In this document: in pieces, positions 28,390 to 53,117 of the stretch
Layout of the letters: every line of letters begins with the position of its first letter
How positions within the stretch are numbered: the first letter of the stretch is position 1
Source of the DNA: an uncultured virus (IMG/VR IMGVR_UViG_3300023175_002299)
Lineage: Duplodnaviria > Heunggongvirae > Uroviricota > Caudoviricetes
Direction: 5' to 3' (one strand)
Length of the DNA stretch: 64,000 nucleotides
IMG/VR virus record: IMGVR_UViG_3300023175_002299
Coordinates: 1-64,000 of that record
Position numbers and translations under genes: made by a program
Notes under the pieces: model-generated
What the model was told of the DNA's origin: nothing
What the model saw: only the letters and a program-made list of their open reading frames with translations
Databases searched by the model: none

Positions 28390-29249
28390 TGGCTAAGTTT
28401 TTTATCACGGGTGACAGTAATGCTTGTGGAGAGTGGGGGCATGAAGACTCTCCACAATATGGCCACAAAGTCTCAACTAGAGGATATGTGGTTACTCACA
28501 CTGGTACACAACACTGGTTGACAGAGGCAGGGCATTTTGCAATAAGGCAGGGATTCCCAGGCGGATCAAATCACACCGCAATGAATCATTTAGAAAACGG
28601 AATGTTTTATGCTACTCAACATCATGGCATCAAACTTGAAGATGACAGGGCAAAGATGTCTTGTGATGTACATGGTTTTGGTGATTCTTGGAAAACAATT
28701 GAAGACTTTGATGCAATCATCTTTTTTTGGAGTGGGCCTTGTAGAGATATTCCATCTATGATAACAGACCCCAGTATATTTTTGTTAGAACAAAGTAAAA
28801 CTGGCGGCATCACCATTGATAAATGGGGACATTGGAATGAACTTCTAAGTTTTATGATGGTGTCTAGGATGATATTATTCTCATCAAAAAAACGAATCCC
28901 ACTGTACTTGATTGGTGCTCAACAAAAACTACCACCTTGGGTATATGATTTCAAAAATGAATATTTTATTCCATTGATTAGGAGCGTAGTAGAACTATGC
29001 CATCCAGATATAAGCATTCCAAGATACACCGATTTTCAAGTTGGTGCTAGGTGGAAAACAGATGGCGTAGATTCTTTTAAGAAGGACGGCCGAAATCACT
29101 TTTCCGAGGAAATGATGGATTTGATTTTAGATGTTACCAACAATTATTGGCCCAAATTGGCGTCTAGTCATGTCTCAAATGACGCTCACCCAGACCGATG
29201 GGCCCACAAAAAAGTGACAGATTTGATATTAGAATCAATTAATTTCTAA
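28389..29249 (+). CDS. SGNH-like protein, tandem paralog of the previous gene
   Basis: TGDSNACGEW...FPGGSN...FFWSGP...DAHPDRWAH. Confidence 0.6.
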   Translation: MAKFFITGDSNACGEWGHEDSPQYGHKVSTRGYVVTHTGTQHWLTEAGHFAIRQGFPGGSNHTAMNHLENGMFYATQHHGIKLEDDRAKMSCDVHGFGDSWKTIEDFDAIIFFWSGPCRDIPSMITDPSIFLLEQSKTGGITIDKWGHWNELLSFMMVSRMILFSSKKRIPLYLIGAQQKLPPWVYDFKNEYFIPLIRSVVELCHPDISIPRYTDFQVGARWKTDGVDSFKKDGRNHFSEEMMDLILDVTNNYWPKLASSHVSNDAHPDRWAHKKVTDLILESINF

Positions 29250-30629: not shown

Positions 30630-31217
30630 GTGCTGATGTTGAGGTTGTTATTGAAGATCAGTTTTCGGATAGACCCTATCTTGTCTCCTACGCCAAGGAA
30701 GTGGCTAAAGATTACTTGTGGGAGGAAATTCCTTTTGAGTAAAATTTCGGTATTGGTTCGTGGTGGAAACAGTTTCCAAAAACATGTCGTCAATCAGTGT
30801 GTCGATTGGTGTACTCGCAATCTCATGCCAGATGTCAGACGCATTTATATTGATGTTCATCTGAAGAACATTCCTGATGCAGATGGATACTGCGAGAATA
30901 TCGCCCTTGAGAAAGAAGATTTTGTTGGTTCTTCGCCACGCACATTCAAACTTCAGATTAATAAAACCCTACATTTTATGGAGATGGTTTCTACCATCAT
31001 TCATGAGATGGTTCACGTTAAACAATACGTTAATCGTGAACTAAATGACAACCATTCAGCAATTAAGTGGAAGTCACGACACTGCTCATATAATATGAGC
31101 TACGAAGATCAGCCTTGGGAGAAAGAGGCATTTCGATTGCAGGATAGACTGTTGTCGCCACTTTTGACCGAGGTTGAGTTTTCAACCAACGTGGATCGGA
31201 ATGGATTCAAAAAATGA
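30630..31217 (+). CDS. HExxH zinc metallopeptidase-like protein (true start probably ~30735)
   Basis: TIIHEMVHVKQY...YEDQPWEKEA. Confidence 0.75.
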   Translation: MLMLRLLLKISFRIDPILSPTPRKWLKITCGRKFLLSKISVLVRGGNSFQKHVVNQCVDWCTRNLMPDVRRIYIDVHLKNIPDADGYCENIALEKEDFVGSSPRTFKLQINKTLHFMEMVSTIIHEMVHVKQYVNRELNDNHSAIKWKSRHCSYNMSYEDQPWEKEAFRLQDRLLSPLLTEVEFSTNVDRNGFKK

Positions 31218-32458
31218 GATACGAAGCATATCTTTATCAATACACTCACATTCCAACCGGCCGAATTTATATTGGAATTCATAAGGGAATGATCTCTGAT
31301 GAATACAATCACTCTTCTACGGATGAAGAGTTTGCTTCCTTACTACGAAATAGTCGTGAGGATTTTTGTTATGAAATACTACTGACAGGTAGTTACAACA
31401 CAATGCGAAACGAGGAGCATAAAATGTTGAAAGCAGTGAACGCAAAGTCTAACCCCATGTACTTTAACAAGTCGAATGGGTCACCCGCTAGTAAAGGGAT
31501 CAACCGAGAAGCAGTAAAAGAACTCGCTGATGATATCATGAGTCGTGAAGGTGTTCTTACTGATGCAAAAGAAATTCTGAAATCTGCGAAATTACAGGTT
31601 CGTGCAGCTGATGATCGTAACCATAAACTAGCTATTCAGAATGCCATTGATGATGCACATGGTGATACAGTGGGACTTGGATTGCGTGCCGTTTTGCTTG
31701 ACGAGTATTACGATGAATCTGACCCAGAGTACGGTGTTGATGGTTCTCTTATGGTCGGCGGAAACCATTCTACAGAAGGCACCGCTGATTCAAAACATGG
31801 TAAGGATATTCCTACTGTCCGTGTTCCTCGTGAAGAGTGGGAACATCTAAATGATACTGAAATTGATTATTTGGGTATGCATCTAAACAAACCCGAAAGT
31901 GTCATTGATCCAAAACGCAATCAACCAGATGATCTTAACAAGATGATTGAAACGATGTACTTCAACGAACATGTCGATCCTCTCAGTGATGAAATGCTAG
32001 AGATTCTTGTTGACCTTAACATTCCCCGCCGCAATGCAAAGAACATCGCTAAGAAGGCAAAGAAATTGATTGAGGTGCAAGAAATGAATATGGTTGGACA
32101 GAAAATGATTGACTATAACGTTGAACCGCACAAATCAAAACTTGCCGAAAAGATTAGTCAGTTGCGTGCTGATGGATCAACTCTCGCCTACACAATTACT
32201 TCTGGTTCTGGTGGCAGTTTGCAAACTCTGTTGCGAAACGTCAAAGATGATTTGATTGAGGGACAACACAACACGGTCAAAGTATTGGTTCGCCATGCTC
32301 TTCCTAGTTTTTATGAAGAATGGAACAATGGTCAAAAGGGAATTGAAAACCAAGAGATGTTTACTTGGGCTCTTGAACCCCGTGGATTAAGTGTTGAGTT
32401 TTTCAATCTTCCTCACATCCAAAAAGATGTCCAGTTTGCAACAATGGATTTGGACTAA
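31214..32458 (+). CDS. Protein with N-terminal GIY-YIG-like domain and long C-terminal region of unknown function
   Basis: YLYQY...GRIYIGIH...Y.HSS...E...YFNKSNG. Confidence 0.55.
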   Translation: MRYEAYLYQYTHIPTGRIYIGIHKGMISDEYNHSSTDEEFASLLRNSREDFCYEILLTGSYNTMRNEEHKMLKAVNAKSNPMYFNKSNGSPASKGINREAVKELADDIMSREGVLTDAKEILKSAKLQVRAADDRNHKLAIQNAIDDAHGDTVGLGLRAVLLDEYYDESDPEYGVDGSLMVGGNHSTEGTADSKHGKDIPTVRVPREEWEHLNDTEIDYLGMHLNKPESVIDPKRNQPDDLNKMIETMYFNEHVDPLSDEMLEILVDLNIPRRNAKNIAKKAKKLIEVQEMNMVGQKMIDYNVEPHKSKLAEKISQLRADGSTLAYTITSGSGGSLQTLLRNVKDDLIEGQHNTVKVLVRHALPSFYEEWNNGQKGIENQEMFTWALEPRGLSVEFFNLPHIQKDVQFATMDLD

Positions 32459-32479
32459 AAAAAGGGGCGAAAGCCCCTT
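32457..32479 (-). terminator. Intrinsic terminator (T-run on - strand; may be bidirectional)
   Basis: AAGGGGC-GAAA-GCCCCTT hairpin preceded by A7 on the + strand. Confidence 0.75.
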
Positions 32480-32516
32480 GACTTAAACTCATTTTTTTGT
32501 TAAACTTGTATAAATA
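32478..32516 (+). promoter_or_regulatory. Tandem sigma70 promoter and T4 late promoter
   Basis: TTGACT(32478)-17 bp-TAAACT(32501); TATAAATA at 32509-32516. Confidence 0.65.
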
Positions 32517-32520
32517 ATCG

Positions 32521-32700
32521 GACATACGGTTGCGGTTCCTGAGCATGACCCCACCCAGACCTACCTTAAACTGCTCCGTCAGATAGACGTTAAACGTTGG
32601 GCGCCCTGAGCAACGGCGGTAGAACAGACCAAGGAAAAACTGCTCCCTCCCAGCTATCGGGAGCGTAACAGGAACCTGAGCATGTTCCGATAAACTGCTC
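32521..32700 (+). ncRNA. Putative ncRNA of three tandem pseudoknot-like units
   Basis: Three CCTGAGCA...AAACTGCTC units, each with a flanking stem of different sequence but preserved pairing; GC-rich intergenic region with upstream promoters. Confidence 0.7.
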
Positions 32701-32707
32701 ATTTTCT

Positions 32708-33775
32708 TTATATGTCATAATACTTCACAAACACACTACTGTTCTCCGTTGCGGATGATGCGTAGGAGTATATTTTACTCGCCACTTTGTTTTTGTTTGT
32801 TGAAGTAGAAACCTCGTGTGCATAATATACACTCAGATACTTGGACATCCACCAAGTCGGATCGACTGCAGCCAACCCCTTTGTTTTTGCAATTACCTCT
32901 GTTTGTTTTTCTTTATTTGTTGTCCCAGCAATCTTTTTGTACATGGTTGCAAATTTGCGTAAAACTGTGTCAGTTGGTTTTAGGTTTGGATTGAATTGAT
33001 TGGGGGGAGTTACAGTAACGCCTCCAGATTTTGCCTGTTCAACCAAAAGACCCCCACCAATTTTACCACCGGCTGCTGACTTTCCTTTTACCTCACCCTG
33101 CCATGATGATGTTACTGCTCTAGAAGAAAAGTTTCTTAACTGAATGTCAAAATCCTTTCCGTCAGAAGTTACGGTTAGATAAACATCTTTCGATGCAGTA
33201 ACGTCTGTCATTGGTTTGACTTCTTTGAATTTTGCAGTTATTTTATTATTGCCATCGTTATATACTTTGGTTTTCACCTGTCCCTTTGGGACTTTTTTCA
33301 ATGAAATGCCGATGAGTTTTTTTGCATTGTATTGATCTAATACAAAATCATTGTACTCTTGTAGGTTCTTGCAGTTGGTTTTCTGGGTATATCCAGCCTT
33401 GATCGCCCAGATGTCTGCTGGATTCCATTTGTCATCACCTGTCATCCCAGAACCAGTCTTATACTTTCTCCACTCTCTGTAGATTCCTTCTACTTTCTGA
33501 CTGCCTCTGTGGAAGGTGTACCCGCTTCTGATTTGGTAGTCTTTGAAAAATTTGTTTGCAGTTGCAATGATACTATAACTGTACCCCGCATCACCTTTGA
33601 ATTGATCCATGCATTCTTTTAAAGTTCTGTCGCAATCTGCACTTTTTGTATTTGACGCTTTAATTTCAAAAAGACTTTCAAGGTCTCTTCCCTTTTCTTG
33701 TCTGGCTGCACAAGCGTAAGCCTGCAACGACTCATAGAGTGCTGTTATCTCTGCTCCTGCTCCCGACTGCGCCAT
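32708..33775 (-). CDS. Putative PD-(D/E)XK-fold (restriction-endonuclease-like) nuclease
   Basis: Early helix Glu (LYESLQ), DKWNPADIWAI, LIGISLKK. Confidence 0.55.
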   Translation of the reverse strand: MAQSGAGAEITALYESLQAYACAARQEKGRDLESLFEIKASNTKSADCDRTLKECMDQFKGDAGYSYSIIATANKFFKDYQIRSGYTFHRGSQKVEGIYREWRKYKTGSGMTGDDKWNPADIWAIKAGYTQKTNCKNLQEYNDFVLDQYNAKKLIGISLKKVPKGQVKTKVYNDGNNKITAKFKEVKPMTDVTASKDVYLTVTSDGKDFDIQLRNFSSRAVTSSWQGEVKGKSAAGGKIGGGLLVEQAKSGGVTVTPPNQFNPNLKPTDTVLRKFATMYKKIAGTTNKEKQTEVIAKTKGLAAVDPTWWMSKYLSVYYAHEVSTSTNKNKVASKIYSYASSATENSSVFVKYYDI

Positions 33776-41216: not shown

Positions 41217-41959
41217 AAATTGCTATAGTTGGTTATGGTTTTGTTGGTAAATCAACGGAATTGCTTTTTAGTGAACATGAGTGTTTGATACACGATCCAG
41301 CTTTGGGTTATGAAATTAAATCTTGGTCTGATGTTCAATATACTTTTATTTGTGTTCCAACTCCTATTAATGATTTTACCAAAAAGGGTTTGTCAAAATC
41401 TGTAGTCAAGGATGCTATTAGGGAAGTTAGGAGTAAAACTAGCAAATCAAACCGTGGTGGTAAGATTGTTGTCAGAAGCACTCTAGGCCCAGATCAATTG
41501 GAAGATGATTGGATTTACATGCCGGAGTTTTTGAGAGAAAATCACTGGAAAGAGGATACAATGGATCATCGCAAATCGGTGATAATTGGTGCTAGTGATG
41601 AAGAAGATTTTTTTGCCCTTCAGTACGCTTTGCCATTCATGAAAACCGCTCATCGTGTCTCACCCAGAGAAGCTGCGATATATAAGATGAGTAGAAATTC
41701 TTTACTTGCAGCTAGAGTCATGTTTGCAAATCATGTTTATGATGTTTGTGAAAAAAATGGTGCCGATTACAATAATATAAAAAAATTGTATGTGGTTGAG
41801 AATGAATTTGGTTGGACACATTGGGATGTCCCCGGCCCAGATGGTAAACGTGGATTTGGGGGCAAGTGTCTACCAAAAGACACAAAACATTTTGCAAATT
41901 TGATTTCTGATAAAAACATGTTCACCCAAATTTTAGAAGACAATGAAAACTCCCGTTGA
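41213..41959 (+). CDS. UDP-glucose/GDP-mannose dehydrogenase family (short form)
   Basis: IVGYGFVG, FICVPTP, VVRST, PEFLRE, GFGGKCLPKD. Confidence 0.88.
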   Translation: MKIAIVGYGFVGKSTELLFSEHECLIHDPALGYEIKSWSDVQYTFICVPTPINDFTKKGLSKSVVKDAIREVRSKTSKSNRGGKIVVRSTLGPDQLEDDWIYMPEFLRENHWKEDTMDHRKSVIIGASDEEDFFALQYALPFMKTAHRVSPREAAIYKMSRNSLLAARVMFANHVYDVCEKNGADYNNIKKLYVVENEFGWTHWDVPGPDGKRGFGGKCLPKDTKHFANLISDKNMFTQILEDNENSR

Positions 41960-43250
41960 ATATTACAAAGAGTTGCAGGACAGGTACGATAAAGTCGGGC
42001 CTGGATTTTGTGTGCTCAAATGGCATCATTTGGAAATGCATCTCAGTTCTGCTCAAAGTCATTCTTGTTTCCATTGTCCACAAAGACACATAGATTTGGA
42101 AGAAGACTTCCACAACACAGAACAAAAGATGCGACAAAGAAAAACAATGCTGGAAGGTGGTCGCCCAGTGGAGTGTTTTTATTGTTGGAATGTTGAAGAC
42201 AGTGGTTCTATTAGTCCGAGGATTGCATTAACTCCAATATACACGGAGATGCAATCAGATATTATTGAGACTACTGCTAGGATGCAGTGGGACGAACCAG
42301 TATATCCAAAATACTTGGAGATGAGTTTTAGTAACAAGTGTCAGATGAAGTGCAGTTATTGTTCCACGCAGAACAGTTCTTCATTGCACGAAGAAATCAA
42401 AAAATTTGGCGAGTATCCTTTGATACACCCAGAAAACAATTCCCAGTATGTTTCTCATGGAAGAGAAAACTTGTGGCCAGAAAACAGTGAAATGTATGAC
42501 AAGTTTTGGAAGTGGATAAGAGAAGCAGTCATGCACTTACAAGTAATTAGGATTACTGGCGGCGAACCTTTGTTGAGCGAACATACATTCAAACTGGCAA
42601 AGTTTATTCGCAATCATCCCAACGGAGAAAATATTGCATTTCATGTCAACAGCAACCTATCTGTTTCTACGAGACGGGTTGATAGAATAATAAAAACCAT
42701 GTCCGAGATGAAGTCACCCAAGATTTATGCCAGTGTTGATACTTTGGGTGAACAGGCAGAATGGATTCGCCACGGACTGAATTGGAAAACATTTGAAATC
42801 AATCTGGTTCAAATTTTGAATGCTAGTATTCCAGTTGGATTAATGGTAACATTTAATCTCCTGAGTATTCCTAAGTTCAAAGAATTTCTTGGATATGTTT
42901 TGGAATTAAAAAGACTTGGCGATGTAAAACTTGATACTCCTTATATGACAAATCCCAAACATCTTTCTGCTTTAATACTTGACGACAATATGATGAATAT
43001 GTTGAAAGATGCTGAAAAATTCATGGAACAGAATACGGATGACGGCGACAATTTAAAATTTAATTCTGGTGAGTTGCAAAAATTTAAAACTGTTGTTAAA
43101 TGGGTAGAAAAAAATAGGTTTGTTGAAGAAGACCTAAATACTCATAGAAAAGATTTTAAACTTTTTGTCGATGAACACGATAAACGCAGAAATGTTAGTT
43201 GGCATGATGCGTTTCCAGAATTACAATATTTTTATGATGAGATATCATGA
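41943..43250 (+). CDS. Radical SAM protein 1 (N-terminal twitch/SPASM-like Cys cluster)
   Basis: CQMKCSYC; ITGGEP; FCVLKW...SCFHC...ECFYCW. Confidence 0.88.
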   Translation: MKTPVEYYKELQDRYDKVGPGFCVLKWHHLEMHLSSAQSHSCFHCPQRHIDLEEDFHNTEQKMRQRKTMLEGGRPVECFYCWNVEDSGSISPRIALTPIYTEMQSDIIETTARMQWDEPVYPKYLEMSFSNKCQMKCSYCSTQNSSSLHEEIKKFGEYPLIHPENNSQYVSHGRENLWPENSEMYDKFWKWIREAVMHLQVIRITGGEPLLSEHTFKLAKFIRNHPNGENIAFHVNSNLSVSTRRVDRIIKTMSEMKSPKIYASVDTLGEQAEWIRHGLNWKTFEINLVQILNASIPVGLMVTFNLLSIPKFKEFLGYVLELKRLGDVKLDTPYMTNPKHLSALILDDNMMNMLKDAEKFMEQNTDDGDNLKFNSGELQKFKTVVKWVEKNRFVEEDLNTHRKDFKLFVDEHDKRRNVSWHDAFPELQYFYDEIS

Positions 43251-44626
43251 CACAAACCAATGAACACTGGATTGAAGTACTAAAAGAAAAACGAATTAAG
43301 ATCAACGAGATTAGTCCGTCTTTTTGTTCTGCTAAGTGGTTGCAAACTACTTTGATGTTGCAGAACGGATACAATCATTCTTGTCACCATCCATCTCCAC
43401 ACAAAATCCCTGTTGCAGAGATTAAAATCAATCCTGCTGCTTTGCACAATAGCAATTATAAAAAACAGCAAAGAATAAAAATGATTAATGGAGAGAGGCC
43501 TCGTGAGTGTGACTATTGTTGGAGAATAGAAGATCAGGACAAGGATCATTTTTCTGATCGTCATTACAAGACTTCTGATTGGTGGGCTTGGGACAAGGTT
43601 GATGTCATTGCAACCAGTGATCCCACGGAAGATGTGTACCCGACTTACCTTGAGGTGTCTTTTAGTAACGCATGTAACTTTGCCTGCGCTTATTGTTCAC
43701 CAGAGATATCCTCAACGTGGATGAAAGACATTGAGTCTAATGGTGAGTATCCAGTGCAGTTTGGTTCTCACAATTTAGACTATTTGAGAGAGACAGAAAA
43801 GTTTCCTTACAAACACTCTGATCCCAATCCATATGTTGATGCTTTCTGGGATTGGTTTCCAGAAGCACTTCCGCATCTAAAAGTTTTCCGAATCACTGGT
43901 GGCGAACCCACCATGAGTAAAGATGTCTGGAAGGTGTTGGACTATATTTACGATAACGCCCAACCAGAACTGTCTATTGCAATCAATAGTAATTTGGGAA
44001 CTGATCCTCGACTCATACAGAAACTTATTGATTCTGTGAACAAGGTGAAGGACAAGGTAAAACAAATTGAAATTTACACAAGTTGTGAGGCAACGGGTAG
44101 ACAGGCAGAGTATGCCAGAGATGGGTTGGATTATGGATACTGGTATGCAAACGTACAACGAGTTTTGAATGAGACTGATGCCAATGTTGCAATCATGACA
44201 ACACTCAACATTCTCAGTCTGCCCACGTTTTGTAACTTCATCGAAGACATTATGAAACTCAGAGTGGAATTCAATAGAGACCTTGCACATAACAGAGTAC
44301 CCCTAAGTGTGAATTATCTTAGATTTCCCCCTCACTTGCAATGCACTTTACTTGATAAGATAACGAGAATATCTTATGCTAGTGATATTGAAAACTTGGC
44401 GGAGTCTTGGTTGAAGTATTACTCGCCAGATAAGTTTGCCAGAATTTATCTTGAAGAGTTTGACCAAATACAAAGATTCTGTGAGTATCTTAGAATTACC
44501 GAAGTCGCTGATAAACATAGAGGTGATTTTGTCAAGTACATAACCGAGTATGACAAGAGAAGACAGAAAGATTTTAGAAACACTTTTCCACAGTATGCAC
44601 ATTTGTTAGAGGATTGGGATGAGTAA
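43247..44626 (+). CDS. Radical SAM protein 2
   Basis: CNFACAYC; ITGGEP; FCSAKW...SCHHP...ECDYCW. Confidence 0.9.
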   Translation: MTQTNEHWIEVLKEKRIKINEISPSFCSAKWLQTTLMLQNGYNHSCHHPSPHKIPVAEIKINPAALHNSNYKKQQRIKMINGERPRECDYCWRIEDQDKDHFSDRHYKTSDWWAWDKVDVIATSDPTEDVYPTYLEVSFSNACNFACAYCSPEISSTWMKDIESNGEYPVQFGSHNLDYLRETEKFPYKHSDPNPYVDAFWDWFPEALPHLKVFRITGGEPTMSKDVWKVLDYIYDNAQPELSIAINSNLGTDPRLIQKLIDSVNKVKDKVKQIEIYTSCEATGRQAEYARDGLDYGYWYANVQRVLNETDANVAIMTTLNILSLPTFCNFIEDIMKLRVEFNRDLAHNRVPLSVNYLRFPPHLQCTLLDKITRISYASDIENLAESWLKYYSPDKFARIYLEEFDQIQRFCEYLRITEVADKHRGDFVKYITEYDKRRQKDFRNTFPQYAHLLEDWDE

Positions 44627-46112
44627 AGAATTTGACTTGATTAAGTATCGAAAAGATATTCTTGATACAAAATCTGAAAGTTTCTGTGGTGCTAAGTGGT
44701 ATAATGCTACAACTTGGCTAGGCAGTGGTACTACCGCTTCTTGTCATCACCCTCCAGCACATAAGATTCCATTAGAAGAGATTGCTGTAGACCCATCTGC
44801 TATTCATAACACTCGCCACAAGAAGGCGATGCGTAAGATGATGCAGAGAGGAGAACGACCACGAGAATGTGAGTACTGCTGGAAAGTGGAAGACATGGGC
44901 AAAGATGCCGTGTCTGATCGTGTGTTTAAATCTATCATCTATTCAAATGCAGACTTACAGAAAGCATATGAAATGGATCACAATGAAAGTGTTGATCTGA
45001 AAACATTTGAGATTGCATTTGACCGTACTTGTCAGTTGGCTTGTTCTTATTGCAATGCATCTTTCTCTACAACATGGGCAAAAGATATCACCAAGAAGGG
45101 TGCGTATCAGAACATGGTGTCGGATGGTGCAGCTGCGTTTCAACAAGACGGCGCATGGGCAGAACCATATGCAAAAGATGAAGACAATCCATACATTAAG
45201 GCTTTTTGGGATTGGTGGGAAGACGGATTATCTGACAGTCTAGAAGAGTTGCGTATTACTGGTGGTGAACCACTGATGTCTGACCAAGTGTGGAAGTTGT
45301 TCGACTGGTTCAATGATAATCCCAGCAAGATGCGTTTTGCTATTAACTCAAATCTCATGGCAAAAGATAGTTTGATTGACCGACTAATTGAACGAAGTCA
45401 AGGTGTCAATGACTTTCATTTGTATACTAGTTGTGAAGCGACTGGACTACAAGCGGATTACATTCGTGACGGACTGCACTACGATACATGGAAGAAAAAC
45501 ATGTACAAGATTATGGACAACTGTAATCTGAAGGGACTGAATATTATGATGACCATCAATAGTCTGTGCTTGTTTAGTATCACCGAGTTCCTTGATGATG
45601 TCTATGAGATGAAGTTACATACTGGCACAAAAGCACCTGTTGTTAGTGTGAACTTGTTACGTTTTCCAAGTTTTCAATCACCGCTCGCACTCCCAGATCA
45701 TATAAAAGACTATCTGCGGGAACAGTTGGAAGATTGGTATAACGCAGTCAAAGAGCAACCACTGTGGCACGATTTCGAGAAGGCAAGCATCGAAAGACTG
45801 ATTGACTATCTTGTTACAGTTGATGCACCACACAGACGCACCAGCGACAAGATGACTCTGTGGAGAGACTTTAAAACTTTCTTCAAACAGTATGATGAGA
45901 GACGAAATAAGTCACTCAATGTATTTCCAGAAATTCTTACTGACTGGGTTGATACTATTCCAGATACAGAGACGATTGCCGTAAAGTTGGTTGATGGTGA
46001 CAGTACAAGACAATATGACGATGACCCCGATCTGAAAAAGATTGCAGAGGAAGAGGGGTGGGTGTTGAAACCAGACAATAAAAACATAGACGATCCATTA
46101 GCAGAGTACTAA
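44619..46112 (+). CDS. Radical SAM protein 3
   Basis: CQLACSYC; ITGGEP; FCGAKW...SCHHP...ECEYCW. Confidence 0.9.
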   Translation: MSKEFDLIKYRKDILDTKSESFCGAKWYNATTWLGSGTTASCHHPPAHKIPLEEIAVDPSAIHNTRHKKAMRKMMQRGERPRECEYCWKVEDMGKDAVSDRVFKSIIYSNADLQKAYEMDHNESVDLKTFEIAFDRTCQLACSYCNASFSTTWAKDITKKGAYQNMVSDGAAAFQQDGAWAEPYAKDEDNPYIKAFWDWWEDGLSDSLEELRITGGEPLMSDQVWKLFDWFNDNPSKMRFAINSNLMAKDSLIDRLIERSQGVNDFHLYTSCEATGLQADYIRDGLHYDTWKKNMYKIMDNCNLKGLNIMMTINSLCLFSITEFLDDVYEMKLHTGTKAPVVSVNLLRFPSFQSPLALPDHIKDYLREQLEDWYNAVKEQPLWHDFEKASIERLIDYLVTVDAPHRRTSDKMTLWRDFKTFFKQYDERRNKSLNVFPEILTDWVDTIPDTETIAVKLVDGDSTRQYDDDPDLKKIAEEEGWVLKPDNKNIDDPLAEY

Positions 46113-46113
46113 A

Positions 46114-46656
46114 ATGATATTTCAAAAAATTAATTTCAACTATGATCTGAATAAGTTTTTAAATGGTGACTTCTCTCAACATTTTGGCAGTTGTATTTCT
46201 TATCAAAAAAGAGAACAGACGGACATTCATGAAACTATTGGAGATGGATTTCCAGAATCTTACCATGAAGACAATACAAGAATACAACAAATTTGGTGGA
46301 CGGAAGATGACATTGATTATAAGGAGATAGGAAGTCTTTTAAACATTGATGTGAAAACAATCAGTGCAATTCTTCAACCGCCTGGAAATGTTGTTACTTT
46401 ACACAGGGATACTTTTTTCAAATTTAAAAATCTCTATCCAGATGATAATAGACCAAAAGTCAGGGCAAATATATTCTTAGAAGACTGGCAAGTAGGACAT
46501 TTTCTTCAGTACAAACATGGGGATGACTGGGTTAGTTGTACTCATTGGAATGCTGGTGAGGGGTATTTGTGGGACAGCGAACCACTCCACCTAAGTTGCA
46601 ACGCTGGGTTGACAAACAAATATACTTTACAAGTCAGCGGATTTTATGATGTTTGA
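46114..46656 (+). CDS. 2OG-Fe(II) oxygenase-like protein
   Basis: QPPGNVVTLHRD...WDSEPLHLSCNAG...LQVSG. Confidence 0.65.
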   Translation: MIFQKINFNYDLNKFLNGDFSQHFGSCISYQKREQTDIHETIGDGFPESYHEDNTRIQQIWWTEDDIDYKEIGSLLNIDVKTISAILQPPGNVVTLHRDTFFKFKNLYPDDNRPKVRANIFLEDWQVGHFLQYKHGDDWVSCTHWNAGEGYLWDSEPLHLSCNAGLTNKYTLQVSGFYDV

Positions 46657-47647
46657 AGGTGAGGGTACTGCTGATCCAGCAGGATATTGTATGTTCATTG
46701 ACGGGGTTATGTACCCAATATACGGACAAACCCTAATCAATGGATATAAGTTGGCTACTGGAGAAGCTCGTGATAGTATTGTAAATATTTATATGCCACA
46801 AGAGATTGAAATAGCTTATAGAGACCCAAATGACAACGAGATAAAATTCCTAGATGTAAACAAAATGCCATGTAAAGTATTTTCTCTGATTGACGCCAGA
46901 GTATATTACTGGTGGTGGATGTATGTTTTTTGGTACTATATGTTACATCAAGGAAAAGACTACCAGATTTCTGAAGAGATTTTTTGGAAAGACATAGAAA
47001 AAAATTTAAATTCTGACCATGATATTTCATTTATTACTATGTGGGCTAGGAGAAGGCCCCACAGAGATGTTTTGTGGAAAAAAATATCTCCTATTATTAA
47101 TGAGTATTGTAAGTATCATGCTGGAGAAAAATTAAACGTTTATAAAATTGTTAAGTGGTATTCAGAGAGGGAATTGTGCCCAGAATTTTATCCGAGAGTT
47201 TTGATTGATTTTGTTACCGAAACAGATGAAAATGTAATTTTTTTAACAGAGAAAACTTTTAGGCCAATTGTATATGGAAAGATTCCTTTGATTTATGCAG
47301 CACCAAAAACTTACCAAAGGTTGTTTATGTGTGGATATACGCCACACCCAGAAATTGATTACTCTTTCGATAGGGTTATTGATAACGAAAAACGTGGTGA
47401 AATGATAATAGAACAACTTGATAATTTGATTAATACATATGAAGTTTCTGAATTATCGGATATTACTAGAGAAATAAGATTGAAAAATTTTGAATGGGCT
47501 TTCAATTTTGCAAAAACTGATACTGGGCCTCCTCCATTTCCGAAACACATCCCCAGACCATGGCCAACTATGATTGAATCGGTTTTTTTGATACATGAAA
47601 AATTTAAAGAAATGGAAATTCCAGAGGGTTTGATTCTTGAAAGATAA
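46646..47647 (+). CDS. Glycosyltransferase-like protein ('TEK' family)
   Basis: RRPHR...DFVTET...FLTEKTFRP...IDYSFD. Confidence 0.5.
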   Translation: MMFEGEGTADPAGYCMFIDGVMYPIYGQTLINGYKLATGEARDSIVNIYMPQEIEIAYRDPNDNEIKFLDVNKMPCKVFSLIDARVYYWWWMYVFWYYMLHQGKDYQISEEIFWKDIEKNLNSDHDISFITMWARRRPHRDVLWKKISPIINEYCKYHAGEKLNVYKIVKWYSERELCPEFYPRVLIDFVTETDENVIFLTEKTFRPIVYGKIPLIYAAPKTYQRLFMCGYTPHPEIDYSFDRVIDNEKRGEMIIEQLDNLINTYEVSELSDITREIRLKNFEWAFNFAKTDTGPPPFPKHIPRPWPTMIESVFLIHEKFKEMEIPEGLILER

Positions 47648-48938
47648 TCCCTACTTCTGTACTGCACCGTGGACTCACACATACGTCTCCCCGCAAGGAG
47701 AACGTAGACTTTGTTGTGCTAGCAGAGAAGAGGCCTCATTTCAAAAACAGTATATTGATAGCGGAACCGCAAAGGGTAAGTTTGAACCAGTATCATTAGA
47801 AGAACACTGGAACAGCGATTACATGAAAGACATTCGTAAAAGAATGTTGGCCGGCGAACGTTTGCCCCAATGCGAAGTTTGTAATGATCAGATATTGAAC
47901 TTGCACACATATAAAAAATATTTCACGGAAACCTTGTTTCCGCATAAAGTGGAAAGTATAATATCCAATACATCGCCAGATGGTTACTATAGTGACCATC
48001 CAGTTTCATATGACTATAGAATATCTAATCTATGCAACTTTAAGTGTAGGATGTGTGGCGAACAATTGTCCAGCAGTTGGGAAGCTGAGAAAAAGAAACT
48101 CAACCTCATTGATATAACAGAAGAACCTTGGTTGGAACCCAATACGAGAAAACAAATCGGCAATTTTCAAAAAGAAGTTTTAGAAGAAGAATTGCAACGT
48201 GCTGTTGACAACGAAACGATAGAAGAGATTTATTGGGTTGGTGGGGAACCTCTAATGTGGGAACGTCACTGGACTGTCATGCAACAACTTGTTGATAGTG
48301 GTCACTCAAAAAATGTTACGGTAAGATATAATACGAATTTGAGTAGAACATCATTTAACGGGTCTCACCTCTATGACTTACTGCCGCACTTTAAGAAAGT
48401 AAACATTTGTGCAAGTATTGACGGAGCGTATACCGTTGGGGAATATATCAGAGACGGGTTGAAGTGGAATGAGTGGATCGAAAACTTTCAAGAGGGATTG
48501 TTTTTGATCGACCAGTTTGGTGATGATGCAATGGTGTTTGATGTAACGTTGACAACGCCCGGCCTGTTCTATCTGAAGGATTTGTTTCATGAAGCATTCA
48601 GACTGAATGTAAAGTCATACTTCAAGTTTACTTTTGCATTTGACCCATCTGTTGTAATGAGTCCGATGTGTTTGCCAAAACATATTTCAAAACCACTTTG
48701 TGAAAGTCTCATCTCGGATTTAGCACCATACACCACTTGGAAGAATCGTGTGTATACTGACTCTTTGAACAACCTAATAAATAGACAGTCATTTGATGAA
48801 CAATGGCCAGAAACATATTGTGATGGGTTAAAACGTGGCAAATCCTTTCAAGAATTTCTAGACGAAAAAAGAAATAGTTGTATTACATTTAGAGATACGC
48901 TGTATGGTGATGCAGTGGATTGGTGGGATAATATATGA
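47637..48938 (+). CDS. Radical SAM protein 4
   Basis: CNFKCRMC; VGGEP; FCTAPWTH...LCC...CEVC. Confidence 0.9.
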   Translation: MKDNPYFCTAPWTHTYVSPQGERRLCCASREEASFQKQYIDSGTAKGKFEPVSLEEHWNSDYMKDIRKRMLAGERLPQCEVCNDQILNLHTYKKYFTETLFPHKVESIISNTSPDGYYSDHPVSYDYRISNLCNFKCRMCGEQLSSSWEAEKKKLNLIDITEEPWLEPNTRKQIGNFQKEVLEEELQRAVDNETIEEIYWVGGEPLMWERHWTVMQQLVDSGHSKNVTVRYNTNLSRTSFNGSHLYDLLPHFKKVNICASIDGAYTVGEYIRDGLKWNEWIENFQEGLFLIDQFGDDAMVFDVTLTTPGLFYLKDLFHEAFRLNVKSYFKFTFAFDPSVVMSPMCLPKHISKPLCESLISDLAPYTTWKNRVYTDSLNNLINRQSFDEQWPETYCDGLKRGKSFQEFLDEKRNSCITFRDTLYGDAVDWWDNI

Positions 48939-49456
48939 AATTAATAATTGCAAATTATAGAACTGGTTCTACTACCTTTTCTCTTCTCCTCGGAGGAGAT
49001 GGTGATGAATGGTTGCACAACACCGTTTGTGATTATAGACCACCCACACCAGAGTTGGACGTATATAAAGTAATTCCAGATCAGTTTCATTATGATAGAT
49101 ATTACGAACAATTTAAAAAAGATTATCTAGAAAATGCTGATGAAATATACTACACTCTGAGAGAGGATGTTTCCAATCAAATTAAGTCACATGCCTATTG
49201 TGGAATTTCAAATGATTGGCATCCGTGGCAAAAGCTTACAGAACCAGATTGGGATGCGGATATGCAAGTTTCATTGGAATACTCTTTTAAAGTAATACTG
49301 AAGTGTCTGGAGTGGCAGTCAAAAATATATAAAGAATTTGGTGGAAAACTTGTTTGGTTGGAGGATCGCAATGACGGGGAAAAATATACTAGAAGATTGG
49401 ATTTAGATCAACCAGATGTAAATGTTAATATTGATGTAAAAGGTATGTTCCTGTGA
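48935..49456 (+). CDS. Sulfotransferase-like (P-loop) hypothetical protein
   Basis: IIANYRTGST; LREDVSNQIKS. Confidence 0.4.
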   Translation: MKLIIANYRTGSTTFSLLLGGDGDEWLHNTVCDYRPPTPELDVYKVIPDQFHYDRYYEQFKKDYLENADEIYYTLREDVSNQIKSHAYCGISNDWHPWQKLTEPDWDADMQVSLEYSFKVILKCLEWQSKIYKEFGGKLVWLEDRNDGEKYTRRLDLDQPDVNVNIDVKGMFL

Positions 49457-51958: not shown

Positions 51959-53117
51959 AATTTGTTTACTGCCTTGGATACACACCGAGTTTACTACAGA
52001 AGGTACTGCCAAACCATGTTGTTTATATCGTGGTGAACCAATGGGGAATCTCAAAGAAGAATCCTTGATGGACATTTGGAGTGGCGAAAAGTACAATAAT
52101 CTGCGACAAGAATTTCTTGATGGAAAAATGCCTTCTGGTTGTGCTATGTGTTGGCAGAACGAAGATGCTGGATACAAGTCAAAAAGATTGCAAGATATCG
52201 ACAGGTTTTCTAATCATGTAGACAAAATAGGAAAAGATATAACTCCCCCAGTTTATCTTGATTTAAAGTTTGGTACATTGTGTAATCTAAAATGTCGATC
52301 TTGTGGAAGTGTAAACTCTTCCAGTTGGAAGGCAGATGAAATTAAAATGTACGGAAGAGTGCTTGATAACAAAGATGCTTTGTGGGTGAAAAAGAATCCT
52401 GGCGTCTGGGAAGAACTTGATAAAATTATGCCGACAGTAGAACATATGGATTTTACTGGTGGAGAACCTTTTATGATAGATCAACATTTTGATCTGTTGC
52501 GACATGCAGTTGATTCTGGTTATGCCAAGAACATTGCCATACATTACAATACAAACGGAACAATTAGACCCCCCAAAGAAATATTTGATCTGTGGAAAGA
52601 ATTTAAACACTGTGAAATCATGTTCAGTATAGATGGCGTTGGAGAACAATTTGAGTATATTCGCAGTGGTGCTGTGTGGGATGAGGTTTGGGAAAACTTC
52701 AATCATTTCAAATCCCATAAATTTCTCAACATACAAATATGTCATACTGTTAGTTTGTTTAACGTATATTATTTGAATGATTTTGTAGAAACATTTGATG
52801 GTAATAACATTTATTTCAATTTGTTGCACTTCCCCAGACAATATTGTGTTCGTAATATGCCAGATTCCAGCAAAGATAAAGTTCGTGAGAAAATTATAAA
52901 TATTCCCAACACCGATGCCATTATAAACTTTATGATGCAAGAGGCCGAACACGATAAGTTAGACTTGGGTTTCATTGCGGTGACAGAAAGACTTGACTCA
53001 GTAAGAGAAGAAGACTACAAAAAAACTTTTCCAGAATTTTATGAGATTTTAGTAGATGGCGGCATCAGAAACAGACCTTGGGAATATCCAGACTTTATTA
53101 CAAAAAGTTCTGGATGA
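51951..53117 (+). CDS. Radical SAM protein 7
   Basis: CNLKCRSC; TGGEP; CLLPWIH...PCC...CAMCW. Confidence 0.9.
   Translation: MDKICLLPWIHTEFTTEGTAKPCCLYRGEPMGNLKEESLMDIWSGEKYNNLRQEFLDGKMPSGCAMCWQNEDAGYKSKRLQDIDRFSNHVDKIGKDITPPVYLDLKFGTLCNLKCRSCGSVNSSSWKADEIKMYGRVLDNKDALWVKKNPGVWEELDKIMPTVEHMDFTGGEPFMIDQHFDLLRHAVDSGYAKNIAIHYNTNGTIRPPKEIFDLWKEFKHCEIMFSIDGVGEQFEYIRSGAVWDEVWENFNHFKSHKFLNIQICHTVSLFNVYYLNDFVETFDGNNIYFNLLHFPRQYCVRNMPDSSKDKVREKIINIPNTDAIINFMMQEAEHDKLDLGFIAVTERLDSVREEDYKKTFPEFYEILVDGGIRNRPWEYPDFITKSSG

What the first reader, a model, noticed from the sequence alone, without database searches (positions are those of the whole stretch)
32478..32700. Unannotated RNA of three tandem pseudoknot-like units with invariant CCTGAGCA / AAACTGCTC motifs and its own promoters
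Seen: this GC-rich intergenic stretch has CCTGAGCA at 32538, 32605 and 32675 and AAACTGCTC at 32568, 32637 and 32692 (period ~67-70 nt). Each CTGAGCA sits in the loop of a stem whose sequence differs but whose pairing is kept: GG(T)TC/GACC, CGCC/GGCG, GGAAC/GTTCC. The loop GAGCA is complementary to the downstream TGCTC, giving an H-type pseudoknot with an A-rich linker. Units 1 and 2 both carry AGACC six nt before AAACTGCTC. Separate hairpins lie between units (CGTC/GACG; CTCCC/GGGAG). A sigma70 promoter and a T4 late box (TATAAATA) lie immediately upstream. Established: type III toxin-antitoxin antitoxins (ToxI) are tandem pseudoknot repeats, and phage phiTE uses ToxI mimics to escape abortive infection. 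Inference: a multivalent protein-binding decoy or antitoxin RNA, or an array processed into small RNAs. I cannot assign it to a known family.
Basis: partly seen in the sequence, partly recalled or inferred. Interest (0 to 1): 0.88.

Follow-up and report, generated by a model that had tools for sequence, protein, structure and literature searches.

The report
Three-unit pseudoknot RNA of phages
A marine phage carries a small non-coding RNA gene built from three copies of a tiny knotted RNA fold that also occurs, so far uncatalogued, in many other phages and mobile elements, usually right behind a gene and often just in front of tRNAs or self-cutting RNAs.

Summary

The unit is real. It is a 33-nt H-type pseudoknot: a variable 4-6 bp stem, the loop C-CUGAGCAW-G, a linker ending in AAAC, then UGCUC. 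Both helices covary in an unbiased sample of 129 phage copies. Non-pairing combinations number 1 and 3 of 129.

No Rfam 15 family matches it. No paper text holds its sequence. It occurs in phage contigs, prophages and other mobile elements of many bacterial phyla and of Methanobrevibacter, at up to 8 CM matches per contig.

It lies on the strand of, and close behind, an upstream gene. It often abuts a tRNA, a hammerhead, twister or pistol ribozyme, or the DUF2800 RNA. It is followed by ACC(A) far more often than expected.

My best reading (about 0.4) is a tRNA-acceptor-like end or punctuation module handled by host tRNA-processing or exonuclease machinery. The window holds a stand-alone three-unit array of it. 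The ToxI/antitoxin reading is not supported. Function is untested, and the RNA-seq was uninformative.

The parts
32462..32479 (.). GC-rich hairpin AAGGGGCGAAAGCCCCTT. It ends the + strand gene 31214-32458. The scan scores it as an intrinsic terminator for minus-strand transcripts, because the run of A before it reads as a U-run on the minus strand.
   Evidence: terminator-like on the - strand, 7 pairs. The hairpin itself is invariant in relatives L125 and L126.
32478..32506 (+). Sigma-70-like promoter TTGACT-17-TAAACT, fused to the hairpin. The terminator/promoter composite is PeSL-like.
   Evidence: Nearly invariant in L125 and L126 although the gene upstream differs. PeSL definition taken from the abstract of PMC4122927.
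32509..32516 (+). TATAAATA box, T4-late-promoter-like.
   Evidence: Conserved in L125 and L126. The box is not enriched in the window (6 against 3.76 expected). Another copy sits 5 nt before the tmRNA gene.
32531..32578 (+). Unit 1, a long-linker form. Stem GG(U)UC 32534-32538 / GACC 32547-32550, with an alternative GACC at 32557-32560. Loop CUGAGCAU. Pseudoknot GAGCA 32541-32545 with UGCUC 32572-32576.
   Evidence: reading. CM R1 hit of 15.0 bits, E 0.015. Kept in L125 (loop CCGAGCA) and L126 (stem AGUC/GACU).
32577..32589 (+). Spacer hairpin A, CGUC-AGAUA-GACG, directly abutting unit 1.
   Evidence: The stem is kept while the loop changes in L125, and the stem is extended to CGUCUG/CAGACG in L126.
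32598..32647 (+). Unit 2, a long-linker form. Stem CGCC 32602-32605 / GGCG 32615-32618. Loop CUGAGCAAC. Pseudoknot GAGCA 32608-32612 with UGCUC 32641-32645.
   Evidence: CM R1 hit of 16.5 bits, E 0.005. L125 has GAGUA here, which keeps the pairing as a U.G wobble.
32647..32663 (+). Spacer hairpin B, CUCCC-AGCUAUC-GGGAG, 1 nt after unit 2.
   Evidence: The stem is kept with a different loop in L126.
32668..32702 (+). Unit 3, the canonical short form. Stem GGAAC 32671-32675 / GUUCC 32684-32688. Loop CUGAGCAU. Linker GAUAAAC. Pseudoknot GAGCA 32678-32682 with UGCUC 32696-32700.
   Evidence: CM R1 hit of 43.4 bits, E 7e-11. The same form is found across the family.
32702..32709 (+). U-rich tail UUUUCUUU after unit 3. 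It may be the 3' end of the RNA. It overlaps the stop codon of the convergent gene.
   Evidence: Present in L125 but absent in L126. The terminator scan does not call it on the + strand.
32708..33775 (-). Convergent 355-aa gene of unknown function (phrog_1462). Its transcript, if it runs on to the hairpin at 32462-32479, carries the antisense of the whole array as a 3' UTR.
   Evidence: The array is syntenic with this gene in L124-L126 and absent beside its more distant homologues L127-L130.

Best explanation
SHOWN. Window ~32520-32710 (+) is a non-coding stretch holding three copies of a compact H-type pseudoknot module. The copies are separated by two small hairpins and preceded by a conserved hairpin/promoter cassette.

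The module has a variable 4-6 bp stem P1 closed by an invariant C-G pair. Loop 1 is CU. P2 is GAGCA paired with UGCUC. One junction base is A or U. The linker ends in the invariant AAAC.

It belongs to a very large family of phage, prophage and mobile-element RNA modules that is absent from Rfam 15.

Family members lie on the coding strand, close behind an upstream gene. They often directly abut a tRNA, a self-cleaving ribozyme (hammerhead, twister, pistol) or another structured RNA (DUF2800 RNA).

The knot is preceded in loop 1 by U. Its terminal pair is G-C (or A-U). It is followed by A, and by ACC(A) far more often than chance.

INFERRED. The module imitates the end of a tRNA acceptor helix: U(-1), G1-C72, A73, CCA, built as a pseudoknot as in plant-virus tRNA-like structures. 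It would serve as an RNA end or punctuation element read by universal host machinery. Candidates are RNase P, tRNA 3'-end trimming with CCA repair, or 3'-to-5' exonucleases that stall at it. The effect would be to delimit and stabilise individual messages of long phage transcripts.

The window's version has its own promoter and no gene to serve. It would then be a stand-alone multivalent form: a stable decoy for the factor that reads the knot, or a precursor cut into about 70-nt pieces. It is also fully antisense to the probable 3' UTR of the convergent gene.

That the module is a real structured RNA I put at about 0.9. The mechanism given here I put at about 0.4.
For: Structure
- P1, unbiased test: 50 of 98 distinct pattern hits have 3 of 3 pairs at the predicted offset, against 0-7 at nine other offsets, with 18 stem types.
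- In a degenerate-pattern sample of 129 copies, pair 11-38 reads G-C 113, A-U 10, G.U 5, A.C 1. Pair 14-35 reads C-G 85, U-A 17, U.G 24, C.A 3.
- On alignment A2, 99% of cells pair, against 25-43% when the partner is slid by 1-3 columns.

Family size and spread
- 27 of 50 virus records carry 2-8 CM matches at E <= 0.1, mostly on one strand and clustered.
- Record titles span a dozen or more phyla, plus Methanobrevibacter.

Not known
- No Rfam family matches at the motif in the window or in 50 loci.

Context
- A same-strand ORF ends 30 nt or less upstream in 44 of 94 viral and 25 of 61 genome copies. A convergent ORF does so in 8 of 94 and 5 of 61.
- A tRNA starts 4-9 nt downstream in 12 of 109 viral and 2 of 98 genome copies. 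None of the 207 has a tRNA 20 nt or less upstream.
- In the unbiased sample, 10 of 128 have a tRNA-like 5' half downstream (2 look false) and 2 of 128 a hammerhead-like core. Control flanks give 0 and 0.
- Directly downstream lie hammerhead III (50.5 and 41.2 bits), twister-P1 (54.3 and 40.6 bits), pistol (31.5 bits) and DUF2800 RNA (156, 153 and 53.6 bits).

Acceptor-end likeness
- A follows the knot in 88 of 129.
- ACC follows in 22 of 128 (1.6 expected) and ACCA in 12 of 129 (0.3 expected).
- ACC follows in 13 of 90 (0.9 expected) in the first viral set and 5 of 94 (1.1 expected) in genomes.

Window locus
- The cassette and array are kept in L125 and L126 at 84% mean column identity, although the upstream gene differs.
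- There is no conserved reading frame: the phase shifts 6 and 5 times.
- Tandem arrays of 2-3 units with spacer hairpins recur in unrelated contigs G011, G002 and G006.
Against: - No experiment and no usable expression data. The metatranscriptome contigs over the locus are short and shallow (depth 2-4), no deeper than the flanking genes, and one spans the terminator/promoter.
- The stacked helix is mostly about 9 bp, not the 12 bp of a tRNA minihelix.
- ACC follows only about 17% of viral copies and about 5% of genome copies. In some cases the ACC belongs to the next element, for example hammerhead stem III in L178 and the start of DUF2800 RNA in L207.
- Mimicry does not explain why the P2 sequence and the AAAC linker are invariant.
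- Pistol and DUF2800 RNA downstream do not create an RNA end next to the knot.
- The A.C variant of the terminal pair is not rare in absolute terms: 105 loci.
- None of 5 complete carrier phages encodes a CCA-adding enzyme, so any such step would depend on the host.
- About seven of the tRNA cases are one homologous tRNA-Asp locus, so they are not independent.
- The window's units 1 and 2 are followed by C and a hairpin, not by A.
- The minimum-free-energy fold of the array is no better than shuffles (z -0.58). That program cannot model pseudoknots.
Confidence: 0.4

Rival explanations
1. The module is a new, very small class of self-cleaving ribozyme. It would punctuate phage transcripts as hammerhead and twister ribozymes are thought to do. 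The array would cut itself into unit-length pieces.
For: - The distribution resembles that of the small ribozymes. It occurs in phages, prophages, many phyla and an archaeon, in several copies flanking single small genes. Passages read in PMC3088659 describe the same pattern for hammerheads.
- It lies beside hammerhead, twister and pistol ribozymes and beside tRNAs.
- Unpaired positions are invariant: CU, and AAAC.
Against: - At 30-33 nt, with one small pseudoknot and no further conserved helix, it is smaller than any known class.
- It sits 1-2 nt from another ribozyme or 4-9 nt from an RNase P site. That would be redundant for a cleaver.
- No cleavage site can be named.
- No activity was tested.
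Confidence: 0.12
2. The module is the binding site of a trans-acting factor. This could be a protein of host or phage, or a small ligand as in a riboswitch. The factor would set translation or stability of the gene downstream. The three-unit RNA would be a sponge for that factor.
For: - The P2, loop-1 and linker sequences are invariant while P1 covaries freely, as in ligand or protein pockets.
- The architecture resembles the 34-nt preQ1-I aptamer, which I recall rather than tested.
- A Shine-Dalgarno-like motif plus ATG lies within 40 nt downstream in 32 of 129 copies.
- A promoter-driven array with no ORF suits titration.
Against: - Downstream genes share no function. They include a nuclease, a Zn-ribbon protein, ferritin, WhiB, DnaB, a glycosyltransferase and a scaffold protein.
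- In many copies the downstream element is a tRNA or a ribozyme, not a gene.
- In the examples read, the ribosome-binding site lies outside the knot.
- A host-specific protein is hard to reconcile with the spread over bacteria, CPR bacteria and an archaeon.
Confidence: 0.15
3. The window's RNA acts mainly as a cis-antisense RNA. It would pair with the 3' UTR of the convergent 355-aa gene and change that message's fate. The knots would be incidental or stabilising.
For: - The only strong terminator for the minus-strand gene lies beyond the array, at 32479-32462.
- The array is syntenic with that gene in L124-L126.
Against: - Antisense action does not explain a fold conserved across thousands of unrelated loci.
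- Homologues of the gene in L127-L130 lack the array.
- This reading is not exclusive of the main one.
Confidence: 0.08
4. The RNA is a ToxI-like type III antitoxin or an antitoxin mimic, used by the phage against abortive infection.
For: Three pseudoknot-forming units in tandem on a phage. ToxI and phiTE are recalled knowledge, not tested here.
Against: - There is no near-identical tandem repeat.
- There is no toxin gene downstream or in the record.
- There is no Rfam ToxI match.
- Most relatives are single units in housekeeping positions of phage operons and prophage head modules.
Confidence: 0.03

Closest known systems
Pseudoknotted acceptor arm of plant-virus tRNA-like structures (tymovirus or tobamovirus 3' ends). 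Recalled knowledge.
   Same: A hairpin whose loop pairs with a 3' segment to build a stacked helix, followed by A and often CCA. The terminal G-C pair is preceded by U. It sits where RNA ends are made.
   Different: It occurs in DNA phages and mobile elements of prokaryotes. It is only about 33 nt, with no T-, D- or anticodon-arm mimic. The stack is about 9 bp. ACC is present in a minority of copies. No aminoacylation, CCA addition or RNase P cleavage has been shown.
MALAT1 / MEN-beta 3' triple helix followed by the tRNA-like mascRNA cut by RNase P. Recalled knowledge.
   Same: A compact A-rich tertiary fold lies at the end of a message, immediately upstream of a tRNA(-like) RNase P site.
   Different: That system is eukaryotic and nuclear, and uses a U-rich internal loop with an A tract rather than an H-type pseudoknot. 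Only about 7-11% of copies here precede a tRNA.
Small self-cleaving ribozymes of phages: hammerhead, twister, pistol, and HDV-like theta ribozymes (PMC3088659 passages; PMC10879173 section 7).
   Same: Same habitats and the same habit of flanking single genes and tRNAs. Members lie physically adjacent to them.
   Different: No Rfam ribozyme model matches the unit. Theta ribozymes lie downstream of tRNAs, whereas this unit lies upstream (0 of 207 within 20 nt downstream of a tRNA). No cleavage has been shown.
preQ1-I, SAM-II and luteovirus-type compact H-type pseudoknots. Recalled knowledge.
   Same: About 30-34 nt, a 2-nt loop 1, and an A-rich loop suited to minor-groove triples.
   Different: No Rfam match. 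No common gene function downstream. In the examples read, the knot lies upstream of the ribosome-binding site. No slippery site was noted.
ToxI-type (type III) antitoxin RNA arrays.
   Same: Tandem pseudoknot units in a phage-related setting.
   Different: See the membership test. The repeat identity, the toxin gene and the family model are all not met.
PeSL promoter/terminator cassettes of T4-type phages (PMC4122927 abstract; PMC2839356 seen in the search listing only).
   Same: A stem-loop fused to an early-type promoter. Different genes lie upstream of an identical cassette in relatives.
   Different: There is only one copy in this window. It drives a non-coding array rather than an ORF.

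Membership tests
Type III toxin-antitoxin antitoxin RNA (ToxI-like) | Head-to-tail, near-identical repeats of about 34-45 nt | tested here: not met
   TRF finds no array. The copies are 65-76% alike over 20-25 nt and share only the two short motifs.
Type III toxin-antitoxin antitoxin RNA (ToxI-like) | Endoribonuclease toxin gene (ToxN/AbiQ type) directly downstream on the same strand | tested here: not met
   The next gene is convergent. PF13958 gives 0 matches in the 72.7-kb record, though the control genomes were silent too. PADLOC gives no match on six of the seven flanking ORFs and only weak (under 20 bits) hits on the 162-aa ORF.
Any Rfam 15 family (including ToxI, PreQ1, HDV-like, pistol, drum, RAGATH motifs) | Covariance-model match | tested here: not met
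   Nothing at the units at E <= 10 in the window. Nothing at the motif in 50 related loci at E <= 1 or 0.1.
H-type pseudoknot (structural class) | Two helices in which hairpin-loop bases pair with a downstream segment, each supported by covariation | tested here: met
   P1: 50 of 98 at the right offset against 0-7 elsewhere. P2: non-pairing combinations 1 of 129 and 3 of 129, with 10 and 17 double changes.
tRNA-like structure with pseudoknotted acceptor arm | Helix end followed by discriminator A and CCA | tested here: inconclusive
   A follows in 88 of 129. ACC follows in 22 of 128 (1.6 expected) and ACCA in 12 of 129 (0.3 expected). This is a minority of copies, and none of the window's three units has it.
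tRNA-like structure with pseudoknotted acceptor arm | Recognition by RNase P, CCA-adding enzyme or an aminoacyl-tRNA synthetase | not testable with these tools
   Needs enzyme assays.
tRNA-like structure with pseudoknotted acceptor arm | Further arms imitating the T, D or anticodon domains | tested here: not met
   No conserved sequence or helix beyond the 33-nt core appears in alignments A1, A2 and A4.
HDV-like theta ribozymes | Cleavage site within 5 nt of the 3' end of a tRNA, that is, the ribozyme lies downstream of the tRNA (PMC10879173, section 7) | tested here: not met
   0 of 207 units lie 20 nt or less downstream of a tRNA, and 14 lie 4-9 nt upstream of one.
Self-cleaving ribozyme (any class) | Site-specific self-scission | not testable with these tools
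   Only context is available.
Riboswitch | Consistent association with genes of one pathway, and an expression platform overlapping a terminator or ribosome-binding site | tested here: not met
   29 downstream proteins fall in unrelated families. In many copies the downstream element is a tRNA or a ribozyme.
PeSL cassette (promoter-early stem-loop) | Terminator stem-loop fused to an early sigma-70-type promoter, with unrelated genes swapped beside it | tested here: met
   (hairpin 32462-32479 and TTGACT-17-TAAACT). The upstream gene differs in L125 and L126 while the cassette is nearly invariant.
PeSL cassette (promoter-early stem-loop) | Many copies per genome | tested here: not met
   There is 1 copy in the 64-kb window at up to 3 mismatches.

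The most novel reading that the evidence does not exclude
The knot is a universal 'RNA end cap' of phages and mobile elements. It would be a tRNA-acceptor-like pseudoknot that host tRNA-end machinery maintains and that 3'-to-5' exonucleases cannot pass. It would be placed just upstream of RNase P sites or self-cleaving ribozymes, so that each released message ends in it. That would make it a prokaryotic counterpart of the MALAT1 triple helix with mascRNA. The promoter-driven three-unit array in this window would then be a decoy, comparable to flavivirus sfRNA, that ties up the host's RNA decay or tRNA-end enzymes during infection.
Probability: 0.2. Interest if true: 0.9.

Novelty: categorically new. 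Interest (0 to 1): 0.82.

Why it matters
If the family is as it appears, it is one of the commonest structured RNA modules of phages. It has about 19 invariant bases and two covarying helices, yet no name and no known function.

Its habit of sitting between a gene and a tRNA or a self-cleaving ribozyme bears on an open question. Nobody knows what the many hammerhead, twister, pistol and HDV-like ribozymes in phage genomes are for, or how long phage transcripts are cut up and kept stable.

A 33-nt element that marks or protects RNA ends would also be a handy part for synthetic operons.

The three-unit, promoter-driven array in this window is the clearest case where the module stands alone. That makes it the natural starting point for experiments on what binds or cuts it.

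Caveat: the claim of novelty rests on three negatives. Rfam 15 has no match. Two full-text searches for the motif strings returned only papers on unrelated subjects, judged from titles and abstract starts. Four keyword searches found no description. A catalogue of 8,495 phage RNA candidates (PMC10690425) could not be fully checked.

Tried and rejected
- Similarity search in GenBank phages with the whole locus: no match.
- Expression. 11 salt-marsh metatranscriptome runs hold small parts of the stretch. Laying X1-X4 gave only 150-390-nt contigs at depth 2-4.4. These include 32435-32602 and 32659-32848, no deeper than the flanking genes, with no ends or joints. This is uninformative about strand, ends or level.
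- Minimum-free-energy fold of the array: z -0.58 against shuffles. The program cannot model pseudoknots, so the result was dropped.
- Coding. The minus strand has a 99-codon open frame over the region. The reading phase relative to L125 and L126 shifts 6 and 5 times, and the frame is broken in L126. Rejected.
- T4 late promoter as a general feature. In the freshwater T4-like group the box before the knot varies (TCAAAATA, AAAAAATA, ACTAAATA and others), so it is not a conserved promoter there. TATAAATA is not enriched in the window.
- 'The knot always precedes an RNA-end-making element' is too strong. Most copies are followed simply by the next gene. DUF2800 RNA and pistol do not make an end next to it.
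- Knot as an intrinsic terminator. A U-run follows in only 12 of 109 viral, 18 of 98 genome and 19 of 129 sample copies. The scan calls none at unit 3.
- Selenocysteine or recoding reading of the loop UGA. In a bacterial subgroup, a 15-33-aa micro-ORF (typically about 20 aa, M-K-R-F-x-V-P-R-x-A-H-C-x-E-G-C...) ends at that UGA or 1 nt before the knot. Read-through frames are not conserved by eye. No Pfam or NCBIfam family matches above cut-off.
- CCA-adding enzyme in carrier phages: 0 of 5 complete records.
- PDB and Pfam searches for the two flanking proteins: nothing significant.
- BLAST of single units against named phages. One useful hit, Paracoccus phage ParKuw1, with 1 copy at 28605-28637. 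One weak, unexamined hit to a fecal phage record. The other hits were tRNA similarity.
- Literature. The motif strings returned only papers on unrelated subjects, judged from titles and abstract starts, none opened. Keyword searches for a ribozyme- or tRNA-associated pseudoknot motif found no description. Passages were read in PMC5737381, PMC3088659 and PMC10690425.
- Supplements of PMC10690425: no occurrence in the files that could be searched. Files 1 and 2 held no searchable text and file 4 was not fetched by the search, so the motif may be among its 8,495 candidates.
Full report
**What is in the window**

The window is the first 64 kb of a 72.7-kb IMG/VR virus record. An identical locus lies in a complete 165.6-kb contig (L124/G050).

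The phage encodes ribonucleotide reductase, primase, PhoH and eight radical-SAM paralogues. It also encodes a tRNA-Thr and a permuted tmRNA.

The finding lies between convergent genes. On the + strand is ORF 31214-32458, 414 aa, whose N-terminus resembles homing endonucleases (phrog_314). On the - strand is ORF 32708-33775, 355 aa, phrog_1462, function unknown.

The motif pair occurs nowhere else in the record and in none of 100 shuffles.

The units are not a classical tandem repeat. TRF finds nothing, and the copies share little beyond the two motifs.

**The locus in relatives**

Seven contigs encode a relative of the 355-aa protein. L124 is identical to the window. L125 (78% aa identity) and L126 (69%) keep the whole arrangement: hairpin, TTGACx-17-TAAACT, TATAAATA, three units and two spacer hairpins.

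Mean column identity over the cassette and array is 84%, although the gene upstream of the cassette is a different one. Four more distant relatives (L127-L130) lack the array.

Changes in the relatives respect the fold:
- Unit 1's stem GGUC/GACC becomes AGUC/GACU in L126.
- Unit 2's loop GAGCA becomes GAGUA in L125, which keeps the pair as U.G.
- The spacer hairpins keep their stems while their loops change.

Indels shift the reading phase 6 and 5 times across the array. The 99-codon open frame on the minus strand is therefore not a conserved gene.

The hairpin fused to a sigma-70-type promoter, with swapped neighbours, has the architecture of the PeSL cassettes of T4-type phages (abstract of PMC4122927). 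It is single-copy in this window.

The scan scores the hairpin as a terminator for the minus strand. The convergent gene's message therefore probably carries the antisense of the array.

**The unit belongs to a large family**

There was a large excess of one spacing: 30 of 98 distinct hits have a gap of 10 nt.

The three bases before CCTGAGCANG pair with the three after it in 50 of 98 distinct hits. At nine other offsets the figure is 0-7. Eighteen different stem sequences occur. This test did not select on pairing.

I built a covariance model from 45 canonical copies (alignment A1, model R1). It finds the window's unit 3 at 43.4 bits and units 1 and 2 at 15.0 and 16.5 bits. Across 50 whole virus records it finds 1-8 matches per record. 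Twenty-seven records have at least two at E <= 0.1, mostly on one strand and 0.3-1.3 kb apart.

To test the second helix without bias, I scanned with a degenerate pattern that allows all four combinations at two pairs. Among 129 distinct copies:

| Pair | Watson-Crick | Double change | Wobble | Mismatch |
|---|---|---|---|---|
| 11-38 | G-C 113 | A-U 10 | G.U 5 | A.C 1 |
| 14-35 | C-G 85 | U-A 17 | U.G 24 | C.A 3 |

On alignment A2 (69 copies), 99% of cells pair. When the partner is slid by 1-3 columns the figure is 25-43%.

A result that cuts the other way: the A.C variant exists in 105 loci in all. Because A.C is 1 of 129 in the sample but 105 in total, the family probably numbers on the order of ten thousand copies in IMG/VR. 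This is a rough inference, and the two patterns differ in their gap rules.

The consensus minimal form is 33 nt:
- P1 of 3-7 pairs, including an invariant closing C-G.
- Loop 1, CU.
- P2, GAGCA paired with UGCUC.
- One junction base, A or U.
- A linker ending in the invariant AAAC, which can host an inserted hairpin.

**It is not a known family**

Rfam 15 gives nothing at the units at E <= 10. It gives nothing at the motif in 50 further loci, while finding tRNAs, ribozymes and DUF2800 RNA next to it.

The motif strings returned only papers on unrelated subjects, judged from titles and abstract starts; I opened none of them. Keyword searches found no description of such a motif. I read passages of PMC5737381, PMC3088659 and PMC10690425, and section 7 of PMC10879173.

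The supplements of the 8,495-candidate phage catalogue could be searched only in part. The motif may be hidden there without a name. Its shortness may explain why BLAST-seeded discovery pipelines would miss it. That last point is inference.

**Where it occurs**

Of 122 matches, 81 have the 24-nt spacing and 67 have at least 3 stem pairs.

Record titles include Saccharibacteria and other CPR bacteria, Bacillota, Actinomycetota, Proteobacteria, Cyanobacteria, Chloroflexota, Aminicenantes, Omnitrophota, Spirochaetota, Bacteroidota and Methanobrevibacter.

Four isolate genomes carry one copy each, and a Polynucleobacter MAG carries three (only 150 candidates per genome were scored). In two Lactobacillaceae the copy lies in a prophage head module, between the minor-head and scaffold genes. 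In Calothrix it lies behind an ArdA-like gene.

The module is therefore a feature of phages and other mobile elements. Paracoccus phage ParKuw1 is a cultured carrier.

**Context**

The unit follows a gene on the same strand. An open frame of at least 80 codons ends 30 nt or less upstream in 44 of 94 viral and 25 of 61 genome copies. A convergent frame ends that close to the other side in 8 of 94 and 5 of 61.

Downstream proteins are unrelated to one another, which argues against a metabolite riboswitch.

A tRNA begins 4-9 nt downstream in 12 of 109 distinct viral and 2 of 98 genome copies. None of the 207 has a tRNA 20 nt or less upstream. About seven of these are one homologous tRNA-Asp locus.

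In the unbiased sample, 10 of 128 have a tRNA-like 5' half downstream (two look false by eye) and 2 of 128 a hammerhead-like core. Control flanks give 0 and 0.

Rfam places the following elements immediately after the knot, mostly 1-3 nt:

| Element | Locus | Score |
|---|---|---|
| Hammerhead type III | L178, twice | 50.5 and 41.2 bits |
| Twister type P1 | L198, L217 | 54.3 and 40.6 bits (below gathering, E 9e-10 and 8e-6) |
| Pistol, then a tRNA | L266 | 31.5 bits (gathering 34.5) |
| DUF2800 RNA | L207, L239, L525 | 156, 153 and 53.6 bits |

Weaker hammerhead matches lie in L173 and L506.

A U-run follows in 12 of 109, 18 of 98 and 19 of 129 copies.

Tandem arrays of two or three units with spacer hairpins recur in the unrelated contigs G011, G002 and G006. 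The window's tandem design is therefore a recurrent one. Its own promoter and the lack of a gene to serve are what set it apart.

**The base after the knot**

A follows UGCUC in 88 of 129 sample copies.

| Set | ACC after the knot | Expected | ACCA | Expected |
|---|---|---|---|---|
| Unbiased sample | 22 of 128 | 1.6 | 12 of 129 | 0.3 |
| First viral set | 13 of 90 | 0.9 | 4 of 90 | not computed |
| Genomes | 5 of 94 | 1.1 | 1 of 94 | not computed |

These figures come, with the expectation taken from local background. The 22 cases have varied stems and varied downstream sequence; only five are the tRNA-Asp locus.

Three features together spell the signature of a tRNA acceptor end: U(-1), G1-C72, A73, CCA. 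They are the invariant U just before the first P2 base, the G-C (or A-U) terminal pair, and the A and ACC(A) that follow. The helix is built as a pseudoknot, as in the tRNA-like 3' ends of tymoviruses. The comparison is from memory, not from a call.

**Reading**

What is shown: a real, very widespread, uncatalogued pseudoknot module, and its placement behind genes and against tRNAs, ribozymes and other folded RNAs.

What I infer, at about 0.4: it is an RNA end or punctuation element that borrows the look of a tRNA acceptor end. Universal host enzymes would cut beside it, maintain it or stall at it. Candidates are RNase P, 3' trimming with CCA repair, and 3' exonucleases.

This would explain several things:
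- the spread across bacteria, CPR bacteria and an archaeon;
- the many copies flanking single small genes, as passages of PMC3088659 describe for hammerheads in prophages;
- the short, fixed distance to elements that create RNA ends.

It leaves several things unexplained:
- the invariant P2 and AAAC sequences;
- the roughly 9-bp stack;
- the minority status of ACC;
- the copies next to pistol or DUF2800 RNA.

Rival readings are a new minimal ribozyme (0.12), a binding site for an unknown factor or ligand (0.15), a purely antisense role for this locus (0.08) and a ToxI-like antitoxin (0.03). The remainder is unassigned.

For the window itself, the array has no gene to serve. A trans role seems most likely: a decoy, or processing into unit RNAs. 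The antisense relation to the convergent gene would be a possible second layer.

**Limits**

No function was tested. The only expression data are shallow metatranscriptome contigs that say nothing about strand or ends. Several counts include homologous loci.

Noticed in passing
window 62141-62495 (Rfam 62171-62404), + strand: The phage encodes a permuted tmRNA (102.9 bits; tag peptide ANDDVYALAA). A TATAAATA box at 62159-62166 ends 5 nt before the Rfam start. So two of the window's six TATAAATA boxes sit directly in front of non-coding RNA genes. Contig G011, which has its own three-unit knot array, also gave a tmRNA match (L139 4537-4609, 47.3 bits).
   Followed up: partly
window 41943-53114, + strand: Eight of nine consecutive ORFs of 388-497 aa match radical-SAM PHROG families (ORF 46646-47644 in the run has no match). 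The run is followed by UDP-glucose dehydrogenase, carbamoyltransferase and nucleotide-sugar epimerase genes. This is an unusually large radical-SAM cluster for a phage.
   Followed up: no
L152, L185, L191, L196, L203, L206, L247, L248, L258, L264, L268, L236, L261 (bacterial MAG loci): A conserved 15-33-aa micro-ORF, typically about 20 aa, with a strong Shine-Dalgarno site (M-K-R-F-x-V-P-R-x-A-H-C-x-E-G-C...). It ends at the UGA inside the knot's loop or at a TAG 1 nt before the knot. A terminator hairpin follows 20-30 nt later in several. No Pfam or NCBIfam family matches above cut-off.
   Followed up: partly
L207 426-586, L239 142-299 (-), L525 86-144: The DUF2800 RNA motif (RF02960) starts about 2 nt after a knot in three loci (156, 153 and 53.6 bits). 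The knot may be an unrecognised 5' neighbour of that motif.
   Followed up: no
L010, L019, L029, L033, L040, L041, L047, L102, L111, L116, L123 (freshwater T4-like contigs): A second conserved hairpin (GTCG-GGGGAGACAG-CGAC) and an A-rich box precede the knot. The three together form one about 75-nt cassette, found in front of different genes (SNase-like nuclease, Zn-ribbon protein, ferritin-like protein). It looks like a shuffled regulatory cassette.
   Followed up: no
window 31214-32458, + strand: This 414-aa ORF has a homing-endonuclease-like N-terminus (phrog_314, E 1e-8). It occupies the place where L125 and L126 have an unrelated gene upstream of the same cassette. That is consistent with a mobile gene inserted next to a PeSL-like site.
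   Followed up: no
L005, L028, L141, L143 (viral loci): A variant unit has an enlarged loop, CCUGAGCACCAUACUCAG. In it, CUGAG can pair with a nearby CUCAG instead of forming the pseudoknot. This is a possible alternative fold or switch.
   Followed up: no
L272 and L274 (Lactobacillaceae prophages), L080 (viral): In three siphovirus-type head modules the knot sits exactly at the boundary between the minor head protein gene and the scaffold gene. That is where expression is expected to step up.
   Followed up: partly
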